From positions 89,681 through 153,680 of the forward strand of contig CAWKII010000001.1 of assembly GCA_963849705.1 (NCBI GenBank): a DNA stretch of 64,000 bases, read 5' to 3'. Positions 28,043 to 33,822 of the stretch are shown here, piece after piece. The notes beneath the pieces were generated by a model. The model did no database searches. It saw only the letters and a list, made by a program, of their open reading frames with translations, and was not told the origin of the DNA. Made by a program: the position numbers and the translations under genes. The stretch's first letter is position 1, and each line of letters begins with the position of its first letter. The DNA comes from an uncultured Acidimicrobiaceae bacterium (GTDB lineage Bacteria > Actinomycetota > Acidimicrobiia > Acidimicrobiales > RAAP-2).

Positions 28043-28798
28043 TTACGCCTCGCGGGGCGTCGTGAAGGTCTGGCAAAACTGAACTAAGCCCTCGGGGCCC
28101 ATGACGTCCCAGGTGGCCACGTCACTTTCGAGGTGTCCTTCCACGAAGAGGGTCGACCCCGAGCCGGCGAGGTGCACCCTGTTTCCGAGCGTCGCGCTTA
28201 GCCAGTCCATCGTTTCTCCCAGGCGTGGCTCCACCAGGCGAGCCGCCATCTCGAGGTGATTACGGCCGGACGGCTTCTCTCCGCTCCTCGCCAGCTCGTC
28301 AAAGGCCTGATAACAGGAGCCGGTGTTCACCCCGAAACTCAAAAGGGCGAGCGTGACGGCCCGACGCTCGTACTCCAGGGGCGTCAGCAACTCTCCCACC
28401 CCCTCGACCAACGCGCGCCCGCCCATCTGGCAGAACGGCACGTCTGCGCCCAACGTGAGCGCCCGGAGGTTGCTCACCCCGCCGGCCCAGCGCAGCATCG
28501 CCGCCGCGTCGGCGCTCCCGCCACCGAGTCCCCCTCCGGGGGGAATGATCTTGTGCACCGTGACTCCCGCACGTCGTCCCACCAGAGCGAGGGTCCTCGC
28601 CACCAGATTGCTCTCGTCCACCGGAAGCCCCGAGTAGGGGCCTTCGAGTCTCAGGTAGTCCCCGTCGGGATCGATCTCCAGACGATCGGCGACCTCTAAG
28701 GTCACCATCTCCGAACGCAACGTGTGCCACCCGTCGTCGCGCCGTCCCGTGACCTCTAAGAACCACGTGAGCTTGGCGGGGGCTAGGACCTCAATCAT
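28043..28798 (-). CDS. ispE: 4-diphosphocytidyl-2-C-methyl-D-erythritol kinase
   Basis: APAKLTWFL, KIIPPGGGLGGGSADAAA, LGADVPF and LAGSGST. ATG overlaps the rsmA stop. Confidence 0.92.
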   Translation of the reverse strand: MIEVLAPAKLTWFLEVTGRRDDGWHTLRSEMVTLEVADRLEIDPDGDYLRLEGPYSGLPVDESNLVARTLALVGRRAGVTVHKIIPPGGGLGGGSADAAAMLRWAGGVSNLRALTLGADVPFCQMGGRALVEGVGELLTPLEYERRAVTLALLSFGVNTGSCYQAFDELARSGEKPSGRNHLEMAARLVEPRLGETMDWLSATLGNRVHLAGSGSTLFVEGHLESDVATWDVMGPEGLVQFCQTFTTPREA

Positions 28799-29613
28799 CG
28801 AGCCGCCGCGAGAGCCGCGAACTCTTCGATAGTCAGTTCTTCTGGCCGGCGAGTCTCCGCCACGCCGGAGCGTTCGAAGACGCCGTCGGTGATCCACGGC
28901 GCCAGCGAACGGCGGAGCATCTTTCGACGTTGGCCAAAAGCCATGCGAATCATGGCGAACAGCTCCTCTTCGCTCACGACCTGTGGATCAACACGCACCC
29001 GCTCGCGACGCACCAGCGACACCAGCACCGAGTCCACCTTGGGTTTGGGCAGGAAGACCGACGGCGGAACCTTGCCCACGATCTTGGCGTCGGCGAAGTA
29101 CTGCACACGCAACGAGACCGCCCCGTAGGCCTCATCACCGGCGTGGGCGGCCAGCCGCTCCCCCGCCTCTTTTTGGACCATGACCAGCATGCGCGTAATC
29201 AGCGGCTCGCTTTCTAACAGGTGCAACACGACGGGCGTGGCCACGTTGTAGGGCAGGTTCGCCACCACCACGGTGTTTCGCCCGCCGAGGATCGACGCGT
29301 AGTCGGCGTCGAGGGCGTTGGCGTGATGGACGTCGATTCCCGTGCCCTCGACGGCGTGGCTCAAGGGCTCGATCAAGTAGCGATCGAGTTCGAGAGCGAG
29401 CACGTGGGCTCCCGTTTCGGCCAGCGCCAGGCTCAGTGAGCCGAGTCCTGCGCCAATCTCTAAGACTTGGTCGCCCGCCCCGACGTCGGCCAGCCGGGCG
29501 ATTCGTCGCACCGTGTTGGGGTCGACCACGAAGTTCTGTCCCAGGGCCCGCGAGGGAGTAAGCCCGTGATCCTTCAACAGAGCAATCACGTCGCTACGAG
29601 TGTGGGTCACCAC
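28795..29613 (-). CDS. rsmA: 16S rRNA m6,2A dimethyltransferase
   Basis: LGQNFVVD, VLEIGAGLGSL, VANLPYNVAT, MVQKE and FGQRRKMLR. Confidence 0.97.
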   Translation of the reverse strand: MVTHTRSDVIALLKDHGLTPSRALGQNFVVDPNTVRRIARLADVGAGDQVLEIGAGLGSLSLALAETGAHVLALELDRYLIEPLSHAVEGTGIDVHHANALDADYASILGGRNTVVVANLPYNVATPVVLHLLESEPLITRMLVMVQKEAGERLAAHAGDEAYGAVSLRVQYFADAKIVGKVPPSVFLPKPKVDSVLVSLVRRERVRVDPQVVSEEELFAMIRMAFGQRRKMLRRSLAPWITDGVFERSGVAETRRPEELTIEEFAALAAAR

Positions 29614-30389
29614 GTAACTTTGACACTAATCACGCCCTTCCAGAGCGGGGCTAATTGGGCGAACTGGGTCTCTGAGAGATCGACCACGTGATTGCCGCTA
29701 CGCCACTCGCGATCCGAGATGATGCAGGTGATCGCCTTTCCGGTCGACAGGTCGCGAATGGTGATCCTCGTGCCCTTAGGCAGATACCACGTGGCGCAGC
29801 GTCCGGGGATGTAGTTGTACCACGTGGCGACGCCGATCTTGTAGCCCGCGCCGTTGATGACCGAGCCCGCCGCAACCGCAGGCGGGGTCGCCACCGGCGC
29901 CACCGCCTTGACGGGGGCGGGCTTGCGCATAGCTACCCTCACGGTGATCTCGGCGTGCCACGCAACCTTCGTGCCCGGGGCCACCGACTGGGAGAGAACG
30001 ACCTTCCAGGTTCCGTTGGAACTTCCTGGTCCGGTCGGTAAAAAGTACAGTTGCGCCTGGCGCATGGCGAGAAGAGCTTCGGCGTGGGTGAGGTCGATGA
30101 GGCGGGGCACGGCCCGGGGGCCTCGGGGATTCACGTTAGTGACGGTAAGAGTCGCCTCACCGTGCCACTTGATCTCGACGCCGGGACGAGGAGACTGCGC
30201 GGTGACCTCGAACCATCGATCGACGTTGCTCCCCGGTCCTTCCGTCTCGAAGTAGAGGCCGTTGTTTCGCATGATGCGATAGACGTCAACGCGGCTGCGC
30301 CCGATGAGATCGGGCATGCGAACGGGCGCGTGCCTCCCCCCGGCGCCAGCCGTGTTGGGCGTCAGCAGCACCACCGTGGTGGCCAACAC
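29607..30389 (-). CDS. Exported protein with two PASTA-like repeats and a C-terminal RlpA-like double-psi beta-barrel (start may lie slightly upstream)
   Basis: VRMPDLIG...AQSPRPG and AVPRLID...SQSVAPGTKV repeats, an Ala/Pro linker, then ATWY..LPKGT.I.I..C.ISDR..VVDLS..F..L..GVI.V. Confidence 0.75.
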   Translation of the reverse strand: MLATTVVLLTPNTAGAGGRHAPVRMPDLIGRSRVDVYRIMRNNGLYFETEGPGSNVDRWFEVTAQSPRPGVEIKWHGEATLTVTNVNPRGPRAVPRLIDLTHAEALLAMRQAQLYFLPTGPGSSNGTWKVVLSQSVAPGTKVAWHAEITVRVAMRKPAPVKAVAPVATPPAVAAGSVINGAGYKIGVATWYNYIPGRCATWYLPKGTRITIRDLSTGKAITCIISDREWRSGNHVVDLSETQFAQLAPLWKGVISVKVTW

Positions 30390-30496
30390 GGCCAGCGTGG
30401 TACGAAGTAAGCGCGGAAGAGAAGCCCCGCGTCGTGTTGTACTCAGATACCCGTCCTCCGCCAGGACCGCGAGATTTCCGTGAAACCCGCCTCCTT

Positions 30497-30525
30497 ACGC
30501 TAGGAGAGGGCGCATCCGTCGGCAA
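30497..30525 (-). promoter_or_regulatory. Putative SigA promoter of the PASTA/RlpA gene
   Basis: TTGCCG-N17-TAGCGT on the minus strand, just downstream of the tatD terminator. Confidence 0.55.
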
Positions 30526-30534
30526 CTCATCATC

Positions 30535-30560
30535 AAAAAGCCCTTGAATTACGGGCTTTT
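30535..30560 (-). terminator. Intrinsic terminator after tatD
   Basis: AAAAGCCC-GTAATTCAA-GGGCTTTTT hairpin with U-tract, 5 nt after the tatD stop. Confidence 0.75.
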
Positions 30561-30565
30561 GCCGC

Positions 30566-31360
30566 TCACCCGACGGTCACATTGAAGAGCCGAGCCGAGT
30601 TGGCCGACGTCGCCTCTCGCAGCGCCAGCGGGTCGTCGCCGCGCAGCTCGGCGACGTACTGGCCGACGAGCGACACGAAGGCCGGCTCGTTCTTCTTTCC
30701 GCGATGGGGCACGGGCGCCAGAAACGGGCTGTCCGTTTCGACGTGCAGACGATCGAGGGGAACGAGTCGCGTCGCCTCGCGCACGAGATCCGCGTTCTTG
30801 AAGGTCACGATTCCCGAGATAGAAATGTCGCACCCGAGCGCCAAGCACCCCTCGGCGTCCTCCGGCGTTCCCGTGAAGCAGTGGATCACCGTGCGCGCCG
30901 GAACGCCCTCACTCGACAAGATCGCGAACAGGTCGTCGAAGGCGTCGCGCGCGTGCACGACGAGAGCGAGGTCGAGCTCCGAAGCGAGGGCGATCTGAGC
31001 GCTAAACGCGCGGCGCTGGGCCTCCCGGGGGGAGTGTTCGTAGAAGTAGTCCAGCCCGCACTCCCCTATGCCCACCAGGCGAGGGTGGCCGGATCGAGCC
31101 AAATCCGCCACGGGATCAAGGTCGTCTTTGGCGTCATGGGGGTGAAGTCCGACCGTGGCGAAGATCTCTACGGGACCGGCCAGTTCCGTCAGGCCAAGGG
31201 CCTCGACGGAGCTGCGAAGCCCCGTTCCCACGACGATGACTCGATCGACGCCGGCCACGTGGGCCCGTTCGAGGGTGGCGATCACTTCCTCGCGAGCGTT
31301 GTGCGGGGTGTCGAGGAACTCATCTTGGAGGTGACAGTGGGCGTCCGTCCAGCCGCTCAT
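30566..31360 (-). CDS. tatD: TatD family hydrolase
   Basis: DAHCH, VGLHPH, IGECGLDY, VVHARDA, VIHCFTG and ETDSPFLAP. Confidence 0.95.
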   Translation of the reverse strand: MSGWTDAHCHLQDEFLDTPHNAREEVIATLERAHVAGVDRVIVVGTGLRSSVEALGLTELAGPVEIFATVGLHPHDAKDDLDPVADLARSGHPRLVGIGECGLDYFYEHSPREAQRRAFSAQIALASELDLALVVHARDAFDDLFAILSSEGVPARTVIHCFTGTPEDAEGCLALGCDISISGIVTFKNADLVREATRLVPLDRLHVETDSPFLAPVPHRGKKNEPAFVSLVGQYVAELRGDDPLALREATSANSARLFNVTVG

Positions 31361-32889
31361 TGATCGCTCTGTATACGTGGGAACAGGGACTCGCCCTTGG
31401 ACACGGTGAGGCCCCCTGGGTACCTCCCCCACTCAACGGCCGCCGTAAAAGGCTCGAAGGTCGGGGATCCCCCGAGGCCGAGACGTCGCCAGATCTCCTC
31501 GGCCACACTCGGCATGGCGGGCGAGACCAGTATCGCCACGATGCGAATCGCCTCGAGCGCGTCGCCCATCACCGCGTCGAGGTCATCGCCCGGCTCCATC
31601 TTCCAGGGCGCGTGCGTCTCCAGGTAGGCGTTGGTGGCGCCGATCAGTTCCCACGTCGCCTCCAGGGCTCGCTGGGGCGCGAAGTGCTCCCACGCGTCAG
31701 CGGCGGCGGCCGTCGTCGCGACGGCGACCTGGCGCAGCGACGAGTGGAGCCGGGGCGCCGGACCAAGGCCCTGACACTTTGAGACCACGACCGCGGCCAC
31801 CCGGGCCACGAGATTACCGAGGTTATTAGCCAAGTCGGTGTTGTAACGCGCGGCGATTCCCTCCAGGGAGAACTCGCCATCGTTGCCGAGAGCCGTTTCG
31901 CGAAGCAGGTAGTAGCGAAGAGGGTCGACCCCGAACTCCTGGGAGAGCGCGATGGGCTCGATGTCGGTGATCTTGACCGCGCCCGCGGCCGCCATGGTCT
32001 TGCCGAGCTTCTCTCCCCCGATCAAGAGCCATCCATTCACGTGGACGTGGTGCACGGGATCGAGGCCCGCGGCCATGCACATGGCCGGCCACCAGACGGT
32101 GTGAAAGCGCAGGATCTCCTTGCCGATCAAGTGGTTCGAGTGGGGCCACCAGTACTCGACCTCGTCGTGGTCGCGTCCGTACCCGATGGCCGACAGGTAG
32201 TTGATGAGGGCGTCGTACCAGACGTAGAACACGTGACGCTCGTCCCAGGGCACGGGAACGCCCCAGGTGATCGAGGTACGGGTAATCGAGATGTCGCGAA
32301 GCCCGCCCTTAATAAAGGACAGCGCTTCGTTGTACTTCGTCTCCGGGGTGACAAAGCCCGGGTGGGCCTCGAAGTGGTCGAGCAGTCGGTCCTGAAAGGC
32401 GCTCAGGCGAAAGAACCAGTTCTCTTCTTCCATCTCCGTTAAGACGCTGTGGTGGATGGGACAGCGACCTTCGTCGCTCGCTTCAAGGGTGTAGTAGTCC
32501 TCGCAGCTCACGCAGTAGAGCCCCTTGTAGACGTCTTTGTAGATAAAGCCGTTGTCGTAGATCGTGGAGAGGAACTTCTGCACTGTCTCGTAGTGGCGGG
32601 GCTCGGTAGTGCGGATGAAGTCGTCGTAGCTGATGTCAAGGACGTCCCAAGCGAGCTTGAAGCGCTCGGAGGTTCGATCGGTCCACTCTTTCGGCGAGTA
32701 GCCGTTCTTGGTGGCCGCGTCGGCCATCTTCTGTCCGTGCTCGTCGGTGCCGGTGAGAAACTTGACCTCGTCGCCGGCCAGGCGGTGCCAGCGGGCGAGC
32801 GCGTCCGCGTTTACCGTCGTGTAGGCCGAGCCAACATGGGGAGCGTCATTGACGTAGTAGATGGGCGTCGTCAGATAAAAGCGGCTCAT
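31357..32889 (-). CDS. metG: Methionine-tRNA ligase (short MetRS1 type)
   Basis: YLTTPIYYVN..PH.G, LTGTDEHGQK, CVSCE, YVWYDALINY, GKEILRFH and LANNLGNL. Confidence 0.97.
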   Translation of the reverse strand: MSRFYLTTPIYYVNDAPHVGSAYTTVNADALARWHRLAGDEVKFLTGTDEHGQKMADAATKNGYSPKEWTDRTSERFKLAWDVLDISYDDFIRTTEPRHYETVQKFLSTIYDNGFIYKDVYKGLYCVSCEDYYTLEASDEGRCPIHHSVLTEMEEENWFFRLSAFQDRLLDHFEAHPGFVTPETKYNEALSFIKGGLRDISITRTSITWGVPVPWDERHVFYVWYDALINYLSAIGYGRDHDEVEYWWPHSNHLIGKEILRFHTVWWPAMCMAAGLDPVHHVHVNGWLLIGGEKLGKTMAAAGAVKITDIEPIALSQEFGVDPLRYYLLRETALGNDGEFSLEGIAARYNTDLANNLGNLVARVAAVVVSKCQGLGPAPRLHSSLRQVAVATTAAAADAWEHFAPQRALEATWELIGATNAYLETHAPWKMEPGDDLDAVMGDALEAIRIVAILVSPAMPSVAEEIWRRLGLGGSPTFEPFTAAVEWGRYPGGLTVSKGESLFPRIQSDQ

Positions 32890-32914: not shown

Positions 32915-33769
32915 TCACTTGTCTTTTCGGGCGTCCAGCGCGAGTTGGTAGACGTCGCGACGAGAAACTCCCAGCGTCTCGGCCACGTAGTCGACGGCGT
33001 CGCGCGTGGTGGCCCCGTCGTTCCACTGCTCGTGCAGAGCCGCGAGCACGACGTGGTCCTCGAGCGCCGTTTCGGGGGTCTCTCCCTCCAAGACGACCAC
33101 GATCTCTCCCACGACGTCTCTCGCGGCGAAGATCGACGCCACCTCTTCCAAGGTTCCTCGTACTAACTCCTCGTGCAGTTTCGTCAGTTCGCGGGCCACC
33201 ACCACGCGGCGCTCGGGATAGATCGACGCGAGTTCGCGCAGTACCGAGGCGAGACGCTGCGGGGACTCGTAGAAGACGACGGTTCGCTCCTCGTTCGCCC
33301 ACTCCCCATAACGCTGTTGGCGTTCGCCCGACTTTCGGGGCAAGAAACCCTCCATCACGAATCGTTCGCTCGACAGTCCACTGATGGACAGGGCGGCAAC
33401 GACGGCCGAGGGGCCCGGCGCGGTGCTCACGCGGAGACCGGCCGCGATGACGGCCGCCACGGCCCGCGCCCCGGGGTCGGAGATGCCCGGGGTCCCGGCG
33501 TCACTGATAAGAACGACCAGCTCGCCCGAGCGCACGCGCGCCACGATCTCCTCGCTCTGGGCGGCCTCGTTGTGTTCATGCAGCGACTGAAGTCTCCGAC
33601 CGGTCGCGATATCGTTCGCGCTAAAGAGCACCCGTGAGTGACGCGTGTCCTCGCAGTAGATCACGTCGGCGTCGCGGAAAAGTTCGAGTGCTCGACGCGA
33701 GAGATCGCCCAGGTTGCCCAGGGGGGTCGCCACGAGCACCAACTGGCCGGCGGTCTTGGTCTCTTCCAC
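32915..33769 (-). CDS. rsmI: 16S rRNA C1402 2'-O-methyltransferase
   Basis: LVATPLGNLGD, CEDTR, ISDAGTPGISDPG, FYESP and ARELTKLHEE. Confidence 0.96.
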   Translation of the reverse strand: MEETKTAGQLVLVATPLGNLGDLSRRALELFRDADVIYCEDTRHSRVLFSANDIATGRRLQSLHEHNEAAQSEEIVARVRSGELVVLISDAGTPGISDPGARAVAAVIAAGLRVSTAPGPSAVVAALSISGLSSERFVMEGFLPRKSGERQQRYGEWANEERTVVFYESPQRLASVLRELASIYPERRVVVARELTKLHEELVRGTLEEVASIFAARDVVGEIVVVLEGETPETALEDHVVLAALHEQWNDGATTRDAVDYVAETLGVSRRDVYQLALDARKDK

Positions 33770-33822
33770 GCTGATTCCCTCGTTTGGCTGGCGACGCGCT
33801 CTAGCCACTAACATTGTCACCT

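What the first reader, a model, noticed from the sequence alone, without database searches (positions are those of the whole stretch)
29607..30389. PASTA-PASTA-RlpA protein occupies the RpfB/YabE slot between tatD and rsmA
Seen: order is metG-tatD-[this gene]-rsmA-ispE. The gene encodes two PASTA-like repeats, an Ala/Pro linker and an RlpA-like double-psi barrel retaining the Asp of VDLS. It has its own candidate promoter behind a terminator. Established: this slot holds rpfB (DUF348-G5-Rpf) in Actinomycetia and yabE (DUF348-G5-3D) in Firmicutes, a known domain displacement. Inference: this is a further displacement in which both the catalytic and the wall-binding modules are replaced, giving a candidate new resuscitation-factor-like lytic transglycosylase.
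Basis: partly seen in the sequence, partly recalled or inferred. Interest (0 to 1): 0.62.

Follow-up and report, generated by a model that had tools for sequence, protein, structure and literature searches.

The report
PASTA-targeted RlpA-type wall enzyme in rpfB slot
This soil Acidimicrobiales bacterium fills the conserved chromosomal slot that holds the resuscitation factor rpfB in mycobacteria with a secreted protein that joins two peptidoglycan-sensing PASTA repeats to an RlpA-type cell-wall-cutting domain; this is an undescribed but evolutionarily traceable variant of a known kind of enzyme.

Summary
The ORF at 29607-30389 (-) encodes two PASTA units (Pfam E = 8e-15; pLDDT >90), an Ala/Pro linker and a C-terminal RlpA-type double-psi beta-barrel (TM 0.81 to PA4485). 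It lies in rsmI-metG-tatD-X-rsmA-ispE.

X is the positional ortholog of RpfB/YabE: 80 of 80 related loci keep tatD-X-rsmA. But the DPBB catalytic domain is not a novelty of this gene. Elsewhere in Acidimicrobiia, and in many other Actinomycetota, the slot gene is DUF348-G5-DPBB_1. A domain tree indicates that DUF348-G5 was lost first, giving linker-only forms, and that PASTA was then gained once in one family and expanded to 2-4 copies. The PASTA units most resemble the terminal PASTA of a Ser/Thr kinase in the same genome.

New points:
- The true start is probably a CTG at 30446, with GGAGG 6-8 nt upstream in 79 of 81 orthologs; this restores a proper signal peptide.
- A promoter (TTGCCG-N17-TAGCGT) and a covarying 5'-UTR hairpin are conserved.
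- The stop codon overlaps the rsmA start.

The likely function is a secreted, PASTA-targeted lytic transglycosylase co-expressed with rsmA and ispE. Enzymatic activity and any role in resuscitation are untested. It is a new variant of a known kind.

The parts
29607..30446 (-).
   Evidence: ORF. GGAGG-N6-8-CTG is in frame in 79 of 81 orthologs, and 6 have a stop directly before the CTG.
30444..30446 (-). Probable CTG initiation codon
   Evidence: In the window there is no ATG/GTG/TTG in frame upstream back to the TAA at 30497-30495. The first canonical start is 19 codons downstream, inside the hydrophobic core.
30454..30459 (-). Shine-Dalgarno GGAGGA, 7 nt before the CTG; part of the conserved CCTGGCGGAGG block
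   Evidence: GGAGG is invariant in 71 distinct leaders. The upstream piece is read in different frames in different loci, so the conservation is at nucleotide level.
30342..30446 (-). Signal peptide M-STTRRGASLPRLLRTTLAVLATTVVLLTPNTAGA (no lipobox Cys)
   Evidence: Read from the sequence. The n-region (RR), h-region and AxA-like site are conserved in orthologs. The cleavage site is inferred.
30120..30323 (-). PASTA unit 1 (residues 23-90 in GTG numbering)
   Evidence: Pfam PF03793, pLDDT >90, Foldseek hits to PknB and PBP2x
29916..30119 (-). PASTA unit 2 (residues 91-158)
   Evidence: It is 38% identical to unit 1 and 39% identical, without gaps, to the terminal PASTA of the Ser/Thr kinase on contig 5 of the genome.
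29841..29915 (-). Ala/Pro-rich disordered linker (residues 159-183)
   Evidence: pLDDT <50. Its length is variable and it is Thr/Pro-rich in orthologs.
29610..29840 (-). RlpA-type double-psi beta-barrel (residues 184-260)
   Evidence: DPBB_1 26.1 bits; model pLDDT 96; TM 0.81 to 4avr_A PA4485; orthologous domains score 39-76 bits for DPBB_1
29679..29681 (-). Codon of D237 ('VDLS'), the putative catalytic Asp
   Evidence: Invariant in 53 diverse sequences. It lies 11 residues after invariant D226, the same spacing as YuiC D151/D162 and MltA D297/D308 (PMC4499186).
29712..29714 (-). Codon of D226 (aligned with the Asp of RlpA 'DRGP'), the putative substrate-binding Asp
   Evidence: Invariant; alignment to PA4485
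30497..30525 (-). Candidate promoter: -35 TTGCCG (30525-30520), 17-nt spacer, -10 TAGCGT (30502-30497)
   Evidence: TAGCGT is invariant in 71 distinct leaders and present in 78 of 80 loci; 75 of those 78 have a TTG -35 at 16-18 nt. TANNNT is the mycobacterial -10 form (PMC6009663).
30469..30490 (-). Conserved 5'-UTR hairpin (GCGGGTTT...AAATCTCGC)
   Evidence: 74.5% of cells paired against 61.8% in shuffles (0 of 500 reach it); covariation 0.373 against 0.184 (0 of 500) and 0.11-0.21 when slid; all 8 pairs show compensatory changes
30535..30560 (-). Terminator-like hairpin plus U-run directly after the tatD stop
   Evidence: MFE fold; similar hairpins and T-runs in many orthologs
29607..29613 (-). 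Overlap of the X stop codon (TGA) with the rsmA GTG start (GTGGTGA)
   Evidence: Sequence. rsmA directly abuts or overlaps X in the related loci.
28043..29613 (-). Downstream rsmA (28795-29613) and ispE (28043-28897), probably co-transcribed
   Evidence: Pfam RrnaAD and GHMP kinase. The order is conserved in 80 of 80 loci. rpfB-ksgA-ispE is a proven operon in M. tuberculosis (PMC6009663).
30566..33820 (-). Upstream tatD (30566-31432), metG (31357-32889) and rsmI (32915-33820)
   Evidence: Pfam; synteny

Best explanation
X is the Acidimicrobiales version of the RpfB/YabE 'slot' muralytic enzyme.

Expression (inferred from conserved sequence features): it is transcribed from its own conserved promoter, after a terminator that ends tatD. 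It is translated from a conserved weak CTG start behind a strong Shine-Dalgarno sequence and a structured leader. It is translationally coupled to rsmA and then ispE.

Product: after export through an N-terminal signal peptide, the mature protein is two PASTA units, a flexible linker and an RlpA-type double-psi beta-barrel.

Proposed mechanism: the PASTA units dock the enzyme on un-crosslinked or nascent peptidoglycan, muropeptide stems or lipid II. The barrel then cleaves glycan strands as a lytic transglycosylase, using D237 as the catalytic acid/base and D226 for GlcNAc binding, and releases 1,6-anhydro-muropeptides.

Evolution: DUF348-G5-DPBB, the class-wide form, lost DUF348-G5 to give TM/linker-DPBB in this order. 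One family then gained PASTA, probably from the terminal PASTA of a resident Ser/Thr kinase, and the repeats expanded to 2-4 copies.

Shown here: the architecture, folds, orthology, conserved residues, conserved regulatory sequences and evolutionary order. Inferred: export, ligand, catalysis, operon transcription and use of the CTG start.
For: Domains and folds.

Slot orthology: 80 of 80 loci, 20 of 20 class loci and 15 of 20 phylum loci.

Architecture in relatives: DUF348-G5-DPBB_1 with DPBB at 39-76 bits.

Evolutionary order: tree with one PASTA clade (98/89 support) nested in a family clade (100/97), with linker-only forms at the base. Repeat counts are x2 in 57, x3 in 12 and x4 in 8. The genome has no DUF348, G5 or 3D domain anywhere, and X is its only DPBB_1 match.

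Catalytic residues: D226 and D237, and the Cys pair C198/C222, are invariant class-wide. The D-x10-D spacing equals that of the catalytic pair of YuiC and MltA. The class orthologs' domain matches the RlpA-like protein PA4485 at E = 3.9e-15.

Start codon, promoter, leader: CTG start, promoter and leader.

PASTA origin: kinase terminal PASTA 39% identical and 67.7 bits against the X-PASTA profile, against at most 28 bits for other kinase units. The same kinase unit is present in same-genus genomes whose X lacks PASTA.

Regulatory parallel in M. tuberculosis rpfB: own promoters, 5'-UTR RNA element, TTG start, overlap with ksgA and a tri-cistronic operon.
Against: - No activity data exist for any member of this family.
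- The window's own DPBB scores below Pfam's gathering threshold (26.1 against 28.8 bits) and has diverged from RlpA: 'DREW' in place of 'DRGP', and 'RCATWY' in place of 'TAAHRT'.
- From my own knowledge: some RlpA proteins (E. coli) show no detectable lytic activity, and expansins share the fold and the Asp but are non-lytic.
- PASTA ligand specificity cannot be read from sequence.
- CTG initiation and the promoter are inferred from conservation only.
- The direction of PASTA transfer (kinase to X) is inferred from distribution, not shown by a rooted tree.
Confidence: 0.65

Rival explanations
1. The barrel is non-catalytic. X would be a PASTA-anchored wall-binding or wall-loosening protein (expansin/loosenin-like), or a soluble PASTA 'decoy' that competes with the PASTA kinases for their ligand and so tunes growth signalling without cutting glycan.
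For: After PA4485, the closest folds are expansins and loosenin, which are non-lytic. The DPBB_1 score is sub-threshold and 'DRGP' is lost. The PASTA units are of the same subtype as a kinase's terminal unit.
Against: D226 and D237 are invariant across class and phylum, with the MltA/YuiC spacing. The domain is orthologous to high-scoring RlpA-type DPBB_1 domains in the same slot. The slot holds proven muralytic enzymes in other phyla. Linker-only orthologs have nothing but the barrel, which argues that the barrel carries the function.
Confidence: 0.2
2. X is a true functional analog of Rpf. Its main role would be resuscitation from dormancy by generating muropeptide signals sensed by the PASTA kinases.
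For: It occupies the same slot and has operon logic like rpfB. PASTA kinases are present in the genome. The conserved weak start codon and structured leader suggest tightly limited expression.
Against: The argument rests on position only. The genome keeps a separate Rpf-domain protein. YabE/Sps proteins in the same slot are linked to stationary-phase survival rather than resuscitation. No physiological data exist, and the organisms are uncultured MAGs.
Confidence: 0.15
3. The C-terminal barrel is an SPI-like protease inhibitor (Streptomyces papain inhibitor family) tethered to the wall by PASTA.
For: NCBIfam Papain_Inhib hit at E = 4.5e-4. SPI (5ntb) is among the Foldseek hits. There is a conserved Cys pair.
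Against: The score is 20 bits against a cutoff of 150. RlpA-type PA4485 is a far better structural and sequence match. The slot orthologs are clear DPBB_1/RlpA domains.
Confidence: 0.03

Closest known systems
RpfB (M. tuberculosis Rv1009; DUF348x3-G5-Rpf)
   Same: Same chromosomal slot (metG-tatD-X-ksgA/rsmA-ispE). The ORF overlaps ksgA/rsmA. Both have their own promoter, a structured 5' UTR and a non-ATG start. Both are secreted modular enzymes that act on peptidoglycan glycan strands.
   Different: X has no Rpf (lysozyme-like) domain and no DUF348 or G5. Its catalytic fold is a double-psi beta-barrel and its targeting module is PASTA. The leader is only about 45 nt, not a riboswitch-sized element.
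YabE/SpsB and YuiC (Firmicutes; DUF348-G5-3D / 3D only)
   Same: Same slot. The catalytic domain is also a double-psi barrel lytic transglycosylase of the MltA type, with two Asp 11 residues apart. The family shows the same modular variation (LysM, SH3b, coiled-coil or catalytic-domain-only forms).
   Different: Pfam 3D is not matched (E >1); the barrel is of the RlpA (DPBB_1) subtype. PASTA replaces DUF348-G5. There is no rnmV between X and rsmA.
DUF348-G5-DPBB_1 proteins (for example P. acnes PPA2239; slot gene of most Acidimicrobiia and many other Actinomycetota)
   Same: Orthologous C-terminal domain and, in the loci sampled here, the same slot. These are the direct evolutionary precursor architecture.
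   Different: The wall-binding modules differ. Non-Acidimicrobiia forms have 'TAAH' and lack the Cys pair. Most use canonical start codons.
RlpA (P. aeruginosa, V. cholerae; lipoprotein-DPBB-SPOR)
   Same: RlpA-type DPBB with the conserved Asp. A catalytic barrel is fused to a module that recognises a particular peptidoglycan state (SPOR binds denuded glycan; PASTA binds un-crosslinked stems or lipid II).
   Different: X has no lipobox and no SPOR domain. The domain order is reversed, with the targeting module N-terminal. It is a monoderm protein. 'DRGP' is replaced by 'DREW'.
PASTA domains of PknB-type kinases and class B PBPs
   Same: Same fold and Pfam family. X's units are closest to the terminal unit of a kinase in the same genome.
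   Different: They are attached to a glycan-cleaving barrel rather than to a kinase or transpeptidase. They carry a distinctive 'LYF-T-GPGS---W' insert and a 'WH' motif.

Membership tests
PASTA (PF03793) | Sequence match above Pfam's gathering score | tested here: met
   55 bits against a cutoff of 23.2, two stretches
PASTA (PF03793) | Unit of about 65-70 aa with one helix packed on a three-stranded sheet | tested here: met
   H33-42/E46-50/E61-66/E78-84 and H102-111/E115-119/E130-134/E147-153, pLDDT >90. Foldseek hits to PknB and PBP2x PASTA at E down to 5e-7.
PASTA (PF03793) | Binds peptidoglycan precursors, muropeptides or beta-lactams | not testable with these tools
   Needs binding assays
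RlpA-like DPBB (PF03330 DPBB_1 / TIGR00413 rlpA) | Sequence match above the curated cutoff | tested here: not met
   DPBB_1 26.1 against 28.8 bits; TIGR00413 22.2 against 82 bits. Orthologous domains in the same slot score 39-76 bits, and a class ortholog's domain (L087) matches PA4485 at 3.9e-15, so homology holds transitively.
RlpA-like DPBB (PF03330 DPBB_1 / TIGR00413 rlpA) | Double-psi beta-barrel fold | tested here: met
   Model pLDDT 96; TM 0.81 and rmsd 1.7 A to 4avr_A; all further hits are DPBB proteins
RlpA-like DPBB (PF03330 DPBB_1 / TIGR00413 rlpA) | Conserved Asp of the 'IDLS' motif (catalytic in the MltA/YuiC type) | tested here: met
   D237 is invariant in 53 diverse sequences. 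Its spacing to D226 is 11 residues, as in YuiC and MltA.
RlpA sensu stricto (septal-ring lipoprotein) | Lipobox, and a C-terminal SPOR domain | tested here: not met
   No Cys in the signal peptide. No SPOR hit in Pfam at E <= 1.
RlpA sensu stricto (septal-ring lipoprotein) | Lytic transglycosylase activity on denuded glycan | not testable with these tools
   Needs enzymology
RpfB | Rpf (Transglycosylas, PF06737) catalytic domain | tested here: not met
   No hit in X. The genome's only Rpf domain is in a separate 161-aa protein on contig 4.
RpfB | DUF348 repeats and a G5 domain | tested here: not met
   None in X and none anywhere in the genome
RpfB / YabE positional orthologs | Located between tatD and ksgA/rsmA, with ispE downstream | tested here: met
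   Window; 80 of 80 related loci; literature
YabE/Sps (3D domain, PF06725) | 3D domain match | tested here: not met
   No 3D hit at E <= 1; none in the genome

The most novel reading that the evidence does not exclude
X and a resident PASTA Ser/Thr kinase share one PASTA subtype and therefore one ligand. The lytic transglycosylase would be recruited to exactly the peptidoglycan or lipid II species that the kinase senses, so that cutting it, or competing for it, directly sets kinase signalling. Together with co-translation of rsmA and ispE, a weak CTG start and a structured leader, this would form a compact circuit coupling wall opening, growth signalling, ribosome maturation and isoprenoid supply at exit from dormancy.
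Probability: 0.12. Interest if true: 0.8.

Novelty: new variant of a known kind. Interest (0 to 1): 0.5.

Why it matters
1. PASTA has so far been discussed as a sensor or targeting module of penicillin-binding proteins and Ser/Thr kinases. Here it is fused to a glycan-cleaving domain in at least 139 species-level genomes. That gives a natural test of what PASTA recognises, and shows how a lytic enzyme can be aimed at a particular wall state.

2. The tatD-rsmA slot turns out to be a long-lived 'socket' in Actinomycetota. One catalytic barrel has been combined with DUF348-G5, bare linkers, a PcsB-type coiled coil or PASTA. This extends the Rpf/Sps domain-displacement story and suggests that the RlpA-type barrel, not Rpf, is the common state outside Actinomycetia.

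3. A CTG start conserved across a whole family, with its promoter and a covarying leader hairpin, is a clean case of systematically mis-annotated N-termini. It is also likely evidence for selection to keep expression of an autolytic enzyme low.

Tried and rejected
- Rfam scan of 29300-30900 at E <= 10 found nothing, so there is no ydaO/c-di-AMP, B12 or other known riboswitch.
- The whole-leader fold gave z-score 0.01, so there is no unusual global stability.
- The E. coli-type promoter scan found 0 sites. The promoter was found only by phylogenetic footprinting.
- RNAalifold on the MAFFT leader alignment predicted no pairs. The hairpin had to be tested with a named structure.
- The alternative SD-sequestering helix (alignment columns 34-38 with 44-48) is 77% paired but no better than shuffles, because both sides are conserved. 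It is neither supported nor excluded.
- The full-length AF2 model gave only pLDDT 53-76 for the C-terminus. This was solved by a domain-only model with a broader alignment.
- A literature search for RlpA D157 gave no hit in the searchable library. The equivalence of D237 to the RlpA catalytic Asp therefore rests on the alignment to PA4485 and the YuiC/MltA spacing.
- Searches for PASTA with DPBB or RlpA found no prior description.
- The SPI-like inhibitor reading was rejected on score.
Full report
**1. Observation**

The minus strand carries an ORF at exactly 29607-30389 (260 aa). Pfam finds two PASTA stretches (E = 8.1e-15, 55 bits) and a sub-threshold DPBB_1 match (26.1 against 28.8 bits). 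The neighbours are RsmI, MetG, TatD (upstream) and RsmA, IspE (downstream), all on the same strand. NCBIfam gives only weak PknB-PASTA, rlpA and papain-inhibitor hits.

A full-length AlphaFold model gives pLDDT 85-95 for the two PASTA units, below 50 for the Ala/Pro linker, and 53-76 for the C-terminus. Foldseek's first 26 PDB hits are PASTA domains of PknB, PBP2x, PBP1 and PrkC, followed by expansin, loosenin, PA4485 and SPI.

Re-predicting the last 84 residues with a broader alignment gives pLDDT 96 and pTM 0.85. The best PDB match is then the RlpA-like DPBB protein PA4485 (TM 0.81, rmsd 1.7 A), followed by expansins, loosenin, SPI, kiwellin and barwin.

**2. The slot**

Ravagnani et al. [quoted passage not shown]

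The protein has 308 database relatives. The ones that carry names are 'PASTA domain-containing protein [Acidimicrobiales bacterium]'. A scan of one genome per species found 139 genomes encoding a relative. In all 80 fetched loci the gene lies between tatD and rsmA on the same strand wherever the contig reaches, and 68 show the full rsmI-metG-tatD-X-rsmA-ispE order.

**3. What relatives carry in the slot**

A class-level scan found the C-terminal domain alone in frames of about 210 to 625 aa. All 20 loci fetched from different families have that gene between tatD (or metG) and rsmA.

Pfam shows the long forms to be DUF348(x1-3)-G5-DPBB_1, with DPBB_1 at 39-59 bits. The short forms are a membrane anchor or signal peptide, a low-complexity linker and DPBB_1.

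A phylum-level scan found the domain in 86 of 301 genomes. In 15 of 20 fetched non-Acidimicrobiia loci the gene sits directly upstream of rsmA, mostly as DUF348-G5-DPBB_1 with DPBB_1 up to 76 bits. Two of them carry a PcsB-type coiled coil instead.

The DUF348-G5-DPBB_1 architecture is already noted in the literature for the secreted P. acnes protein PPA2239 (PMC3224659). So the RlpA-type barrel is the usual catalytic module of this slot gene outside the Rpf-bearing Actinomycetia. Only the N-terminal module is special here.

**4. Evolutionary order**

Among the window and its 80 related loci, PASTA copy number is 2 in 57, 3 in 12 and 4 in 8. Two copies look frameshifted.

A maximum-likelihood tree of the barrel separates the window's family (100/97 support, branch length 0.69) from all other sequences. 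All 75 PASTA-bearing sequences fall in one sub-clade (98/89) together with a single long-branch linker-only sequence. The basal family members and every sampled same-order sequence are linker-only.

The simplest history is DUF348-G5-DPBB, then linker-DPBB, then one gain of PASTA, then repeat expansion (and one loss). The tree has only 84 columns, so deep forks are unresolved, but these branches are starred. The genome (95% complete) has no DUF348, G5 or 3D domain anywhere. X is its only DPBB_1 match, and there is one separate small Rpf protein.

**5. Source of the PASTA units**

The genome encodes two PASTA Ser/Thr kinases. The terminal unit of the one on contig 5 scores 67.7 bits against a profile of X's PASTA units, whereas all other kinase units score 28 bits or less. 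That unit is 39% identical to X's unit 2 without gaps. X's own two units are 38% identical to each other. It shares the 'LYF.T.G.G...TW' signature.

The same kinase unit is found in same-genus genomes whose X has no PASTA (G029, G134, G154, G202). This suggests the kinase as donor. That direction is inferred, not proven.

**6. Catalytic machinery**

Across 53 diverse barrels the invariant residues are G186, Y191, C198, A199, G206, C222, D226, D237, F243 and G252.

D226 aligns with the Asp of RlpA 'DRGP', and D237 with the Asp of 'IDLS/IDVS' in PA4485. Their 11-residue spacing equals that of YuiC D151/D162 and MltA D297/D308, where the second Asp is the catalytic carboxylate and the first binds the -2 GlcNAc (PMC4499186). 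YuiC produces a 1,6-anhydro product.

The Cys pair is specific to Acidimicrobiia (canonical RlpA-type sequences have 'TAAH'), and I infer a disulfide. From my own knowledge, E. coli RlpA lacks detectable activity and expansins are non-lytic, so catalysis is likely but not assured.

**7. Start codon, promoter, leader**

Upstream of GTG 30389 the frame stays open and reads ...AEDGYLSTTRRGASLPRLLRTTLAV..., with no ATG, GTG or TTG back to the stop.

In 79 of 81 orthologs a GGAGG lies 6-8 nt before an in-frame CTG that opens the signal-peptide n-region. In six loci a TAA or TAG directly precedes that CTG. The piece upstream is read in different frames in different loci. The first canonical start usually falls inside the hydrophobic core. 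Database N-termini are accordingly inconsistent. I therefore place the start at CTG 30446, giving 279 aa.

The leader alignment shows invariant TAGCGT (-10, TANNNT type) with a TTG -35 at 16-18 nt in 75 of 78 loci, beginning 9 nt after the tatD terminator's T-run.

Between the -10 and the SD lies a hairpin with compensatory changes in all 8 pairs: 74.5% paired against 61.8% in shuffles, covariation 0.373 against 0.184, 0 of 500 shuffles reaching the observed value, and slid controls of 0.11-0.21. An SD-sequestering alternative is possible but shows no covariation. No Rfam family matches.

X's TGA overlaps the rsmA GTG.

This package parallels M. tuberculosis rpfB: TANNNT promoters, a 5'-UTR RNA switch, a TTG start, overlap with ksgA, and an rpfB-ksgA-ispE operon (PMC6009663). 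Outside the PASTA clade, starts are mostly canonical, apart from two same-order forms.

**8. Verdict**

The most likely function is a secreted, PASTA-targeted RlpA-type lytic transglycosylase, expressed at low level together with rsmA and ispE. My confidence in that whole statement is about 0.65; architecture and orthology are near certain, while catalysis and ligand are at about 0.6 each.

No paper in the searchable library describes a PASTA-DPBB fusion. It is a new variant of a known kind. Earlier first-stage notes of this scan from other genomes report the same slot with DUF348-G5-DPBB, bare DPBB and PASTAx4-DPBB; my loci show the same forms independently.

Noticed in passing
window 30444-30459 (-); L003-L082: A non-canonical CTG start with a GGAGG Shine-Dalgarno 6-8 nt upstream is conserved in 79 of 81 orthologs. 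Gene callers mis-start the whole family: database N-termini either begin inside the signal peptide or at 'MPDL', or are extended upstream.
   Followed up: yes
window 30469-30490 (-): A covarying 8-bp hairpin lies in the roughly 45-nt 5' UTR, directly before the invariant CCTGGCGGAGG. It matches no Rfam family. Whether it stabilises the mRNA or acts as a switch is open.
   Followed up: partly
own genome contig 5, 141618-143471 (-): A second PASTA Ser/Thr kinase (open frame of 618 aa) has a terminal PASTA unit of the same unusual subtype as X's units. A canonical four-PASTA PknB lies on contig 9, 294272-296188 (-).
   Followed up: partly
own genome contig 4, 216576-216758 (-); L001 1459-1944 (-): The genome's only Rpf-domain gene encodes a small (161 aa) signal-peptide-plus-Rpf protein, unlinked to the slot.
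   Followed up: partly
L083-L088, L098-L101 (N-terminal regions of the slot proteins): The long DUF348-G5-DPBB forms carry a conserved cytoplasmic N-terminal motif 'R(Y/H)A(L/I)..V(R)PSPAR..APEP..W(L/I)P(I/L)' before the membrane anchor, sometimes duplicated and followed by acidic low-complexity sequence. Its function is unknown.
   Followed up: no
L112 (G332) and L116 (G302): In two small-genome (1.4-1.8 Mb) Actinomycetota the slot gene, between metG and rsmA with no tatD detected, is a PcsB-type coiled coil (PF24568) fused to DPBB_1. This is another module swap on the same barrel.
   Followed up: partly
L090 and L092: Two same-order linker-only orthologs also show GGAGG-N7-8-CTG in frame before a signal-like peptide, so CTG initiation may predate the PASTA gain.
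   Followed up: partly
L057 and L075: Two orthologs have the X frame broken (open frames of 139 and 173 aa) and lack the leader pattern. They are either assembly frameshifts or pseudogenes.
   Followed up: no
L039, L054, L061: Records labelled Acidobacteriota or Candidatus Saccharibacteria carry this Acidimicrobiales-type locus with full synteny. They are probably mis-binned or mislabelled MAG contigs.
   Followed up: no
window 28795-28897 (-): The longest ispE frame overlaps the rsmA 3' end by about 100 nt. The true ispE start is probably further downstream, but the genes abut or overlap in all loci, consistent with an X-rsmA-ispE operon.
   Followed up: no
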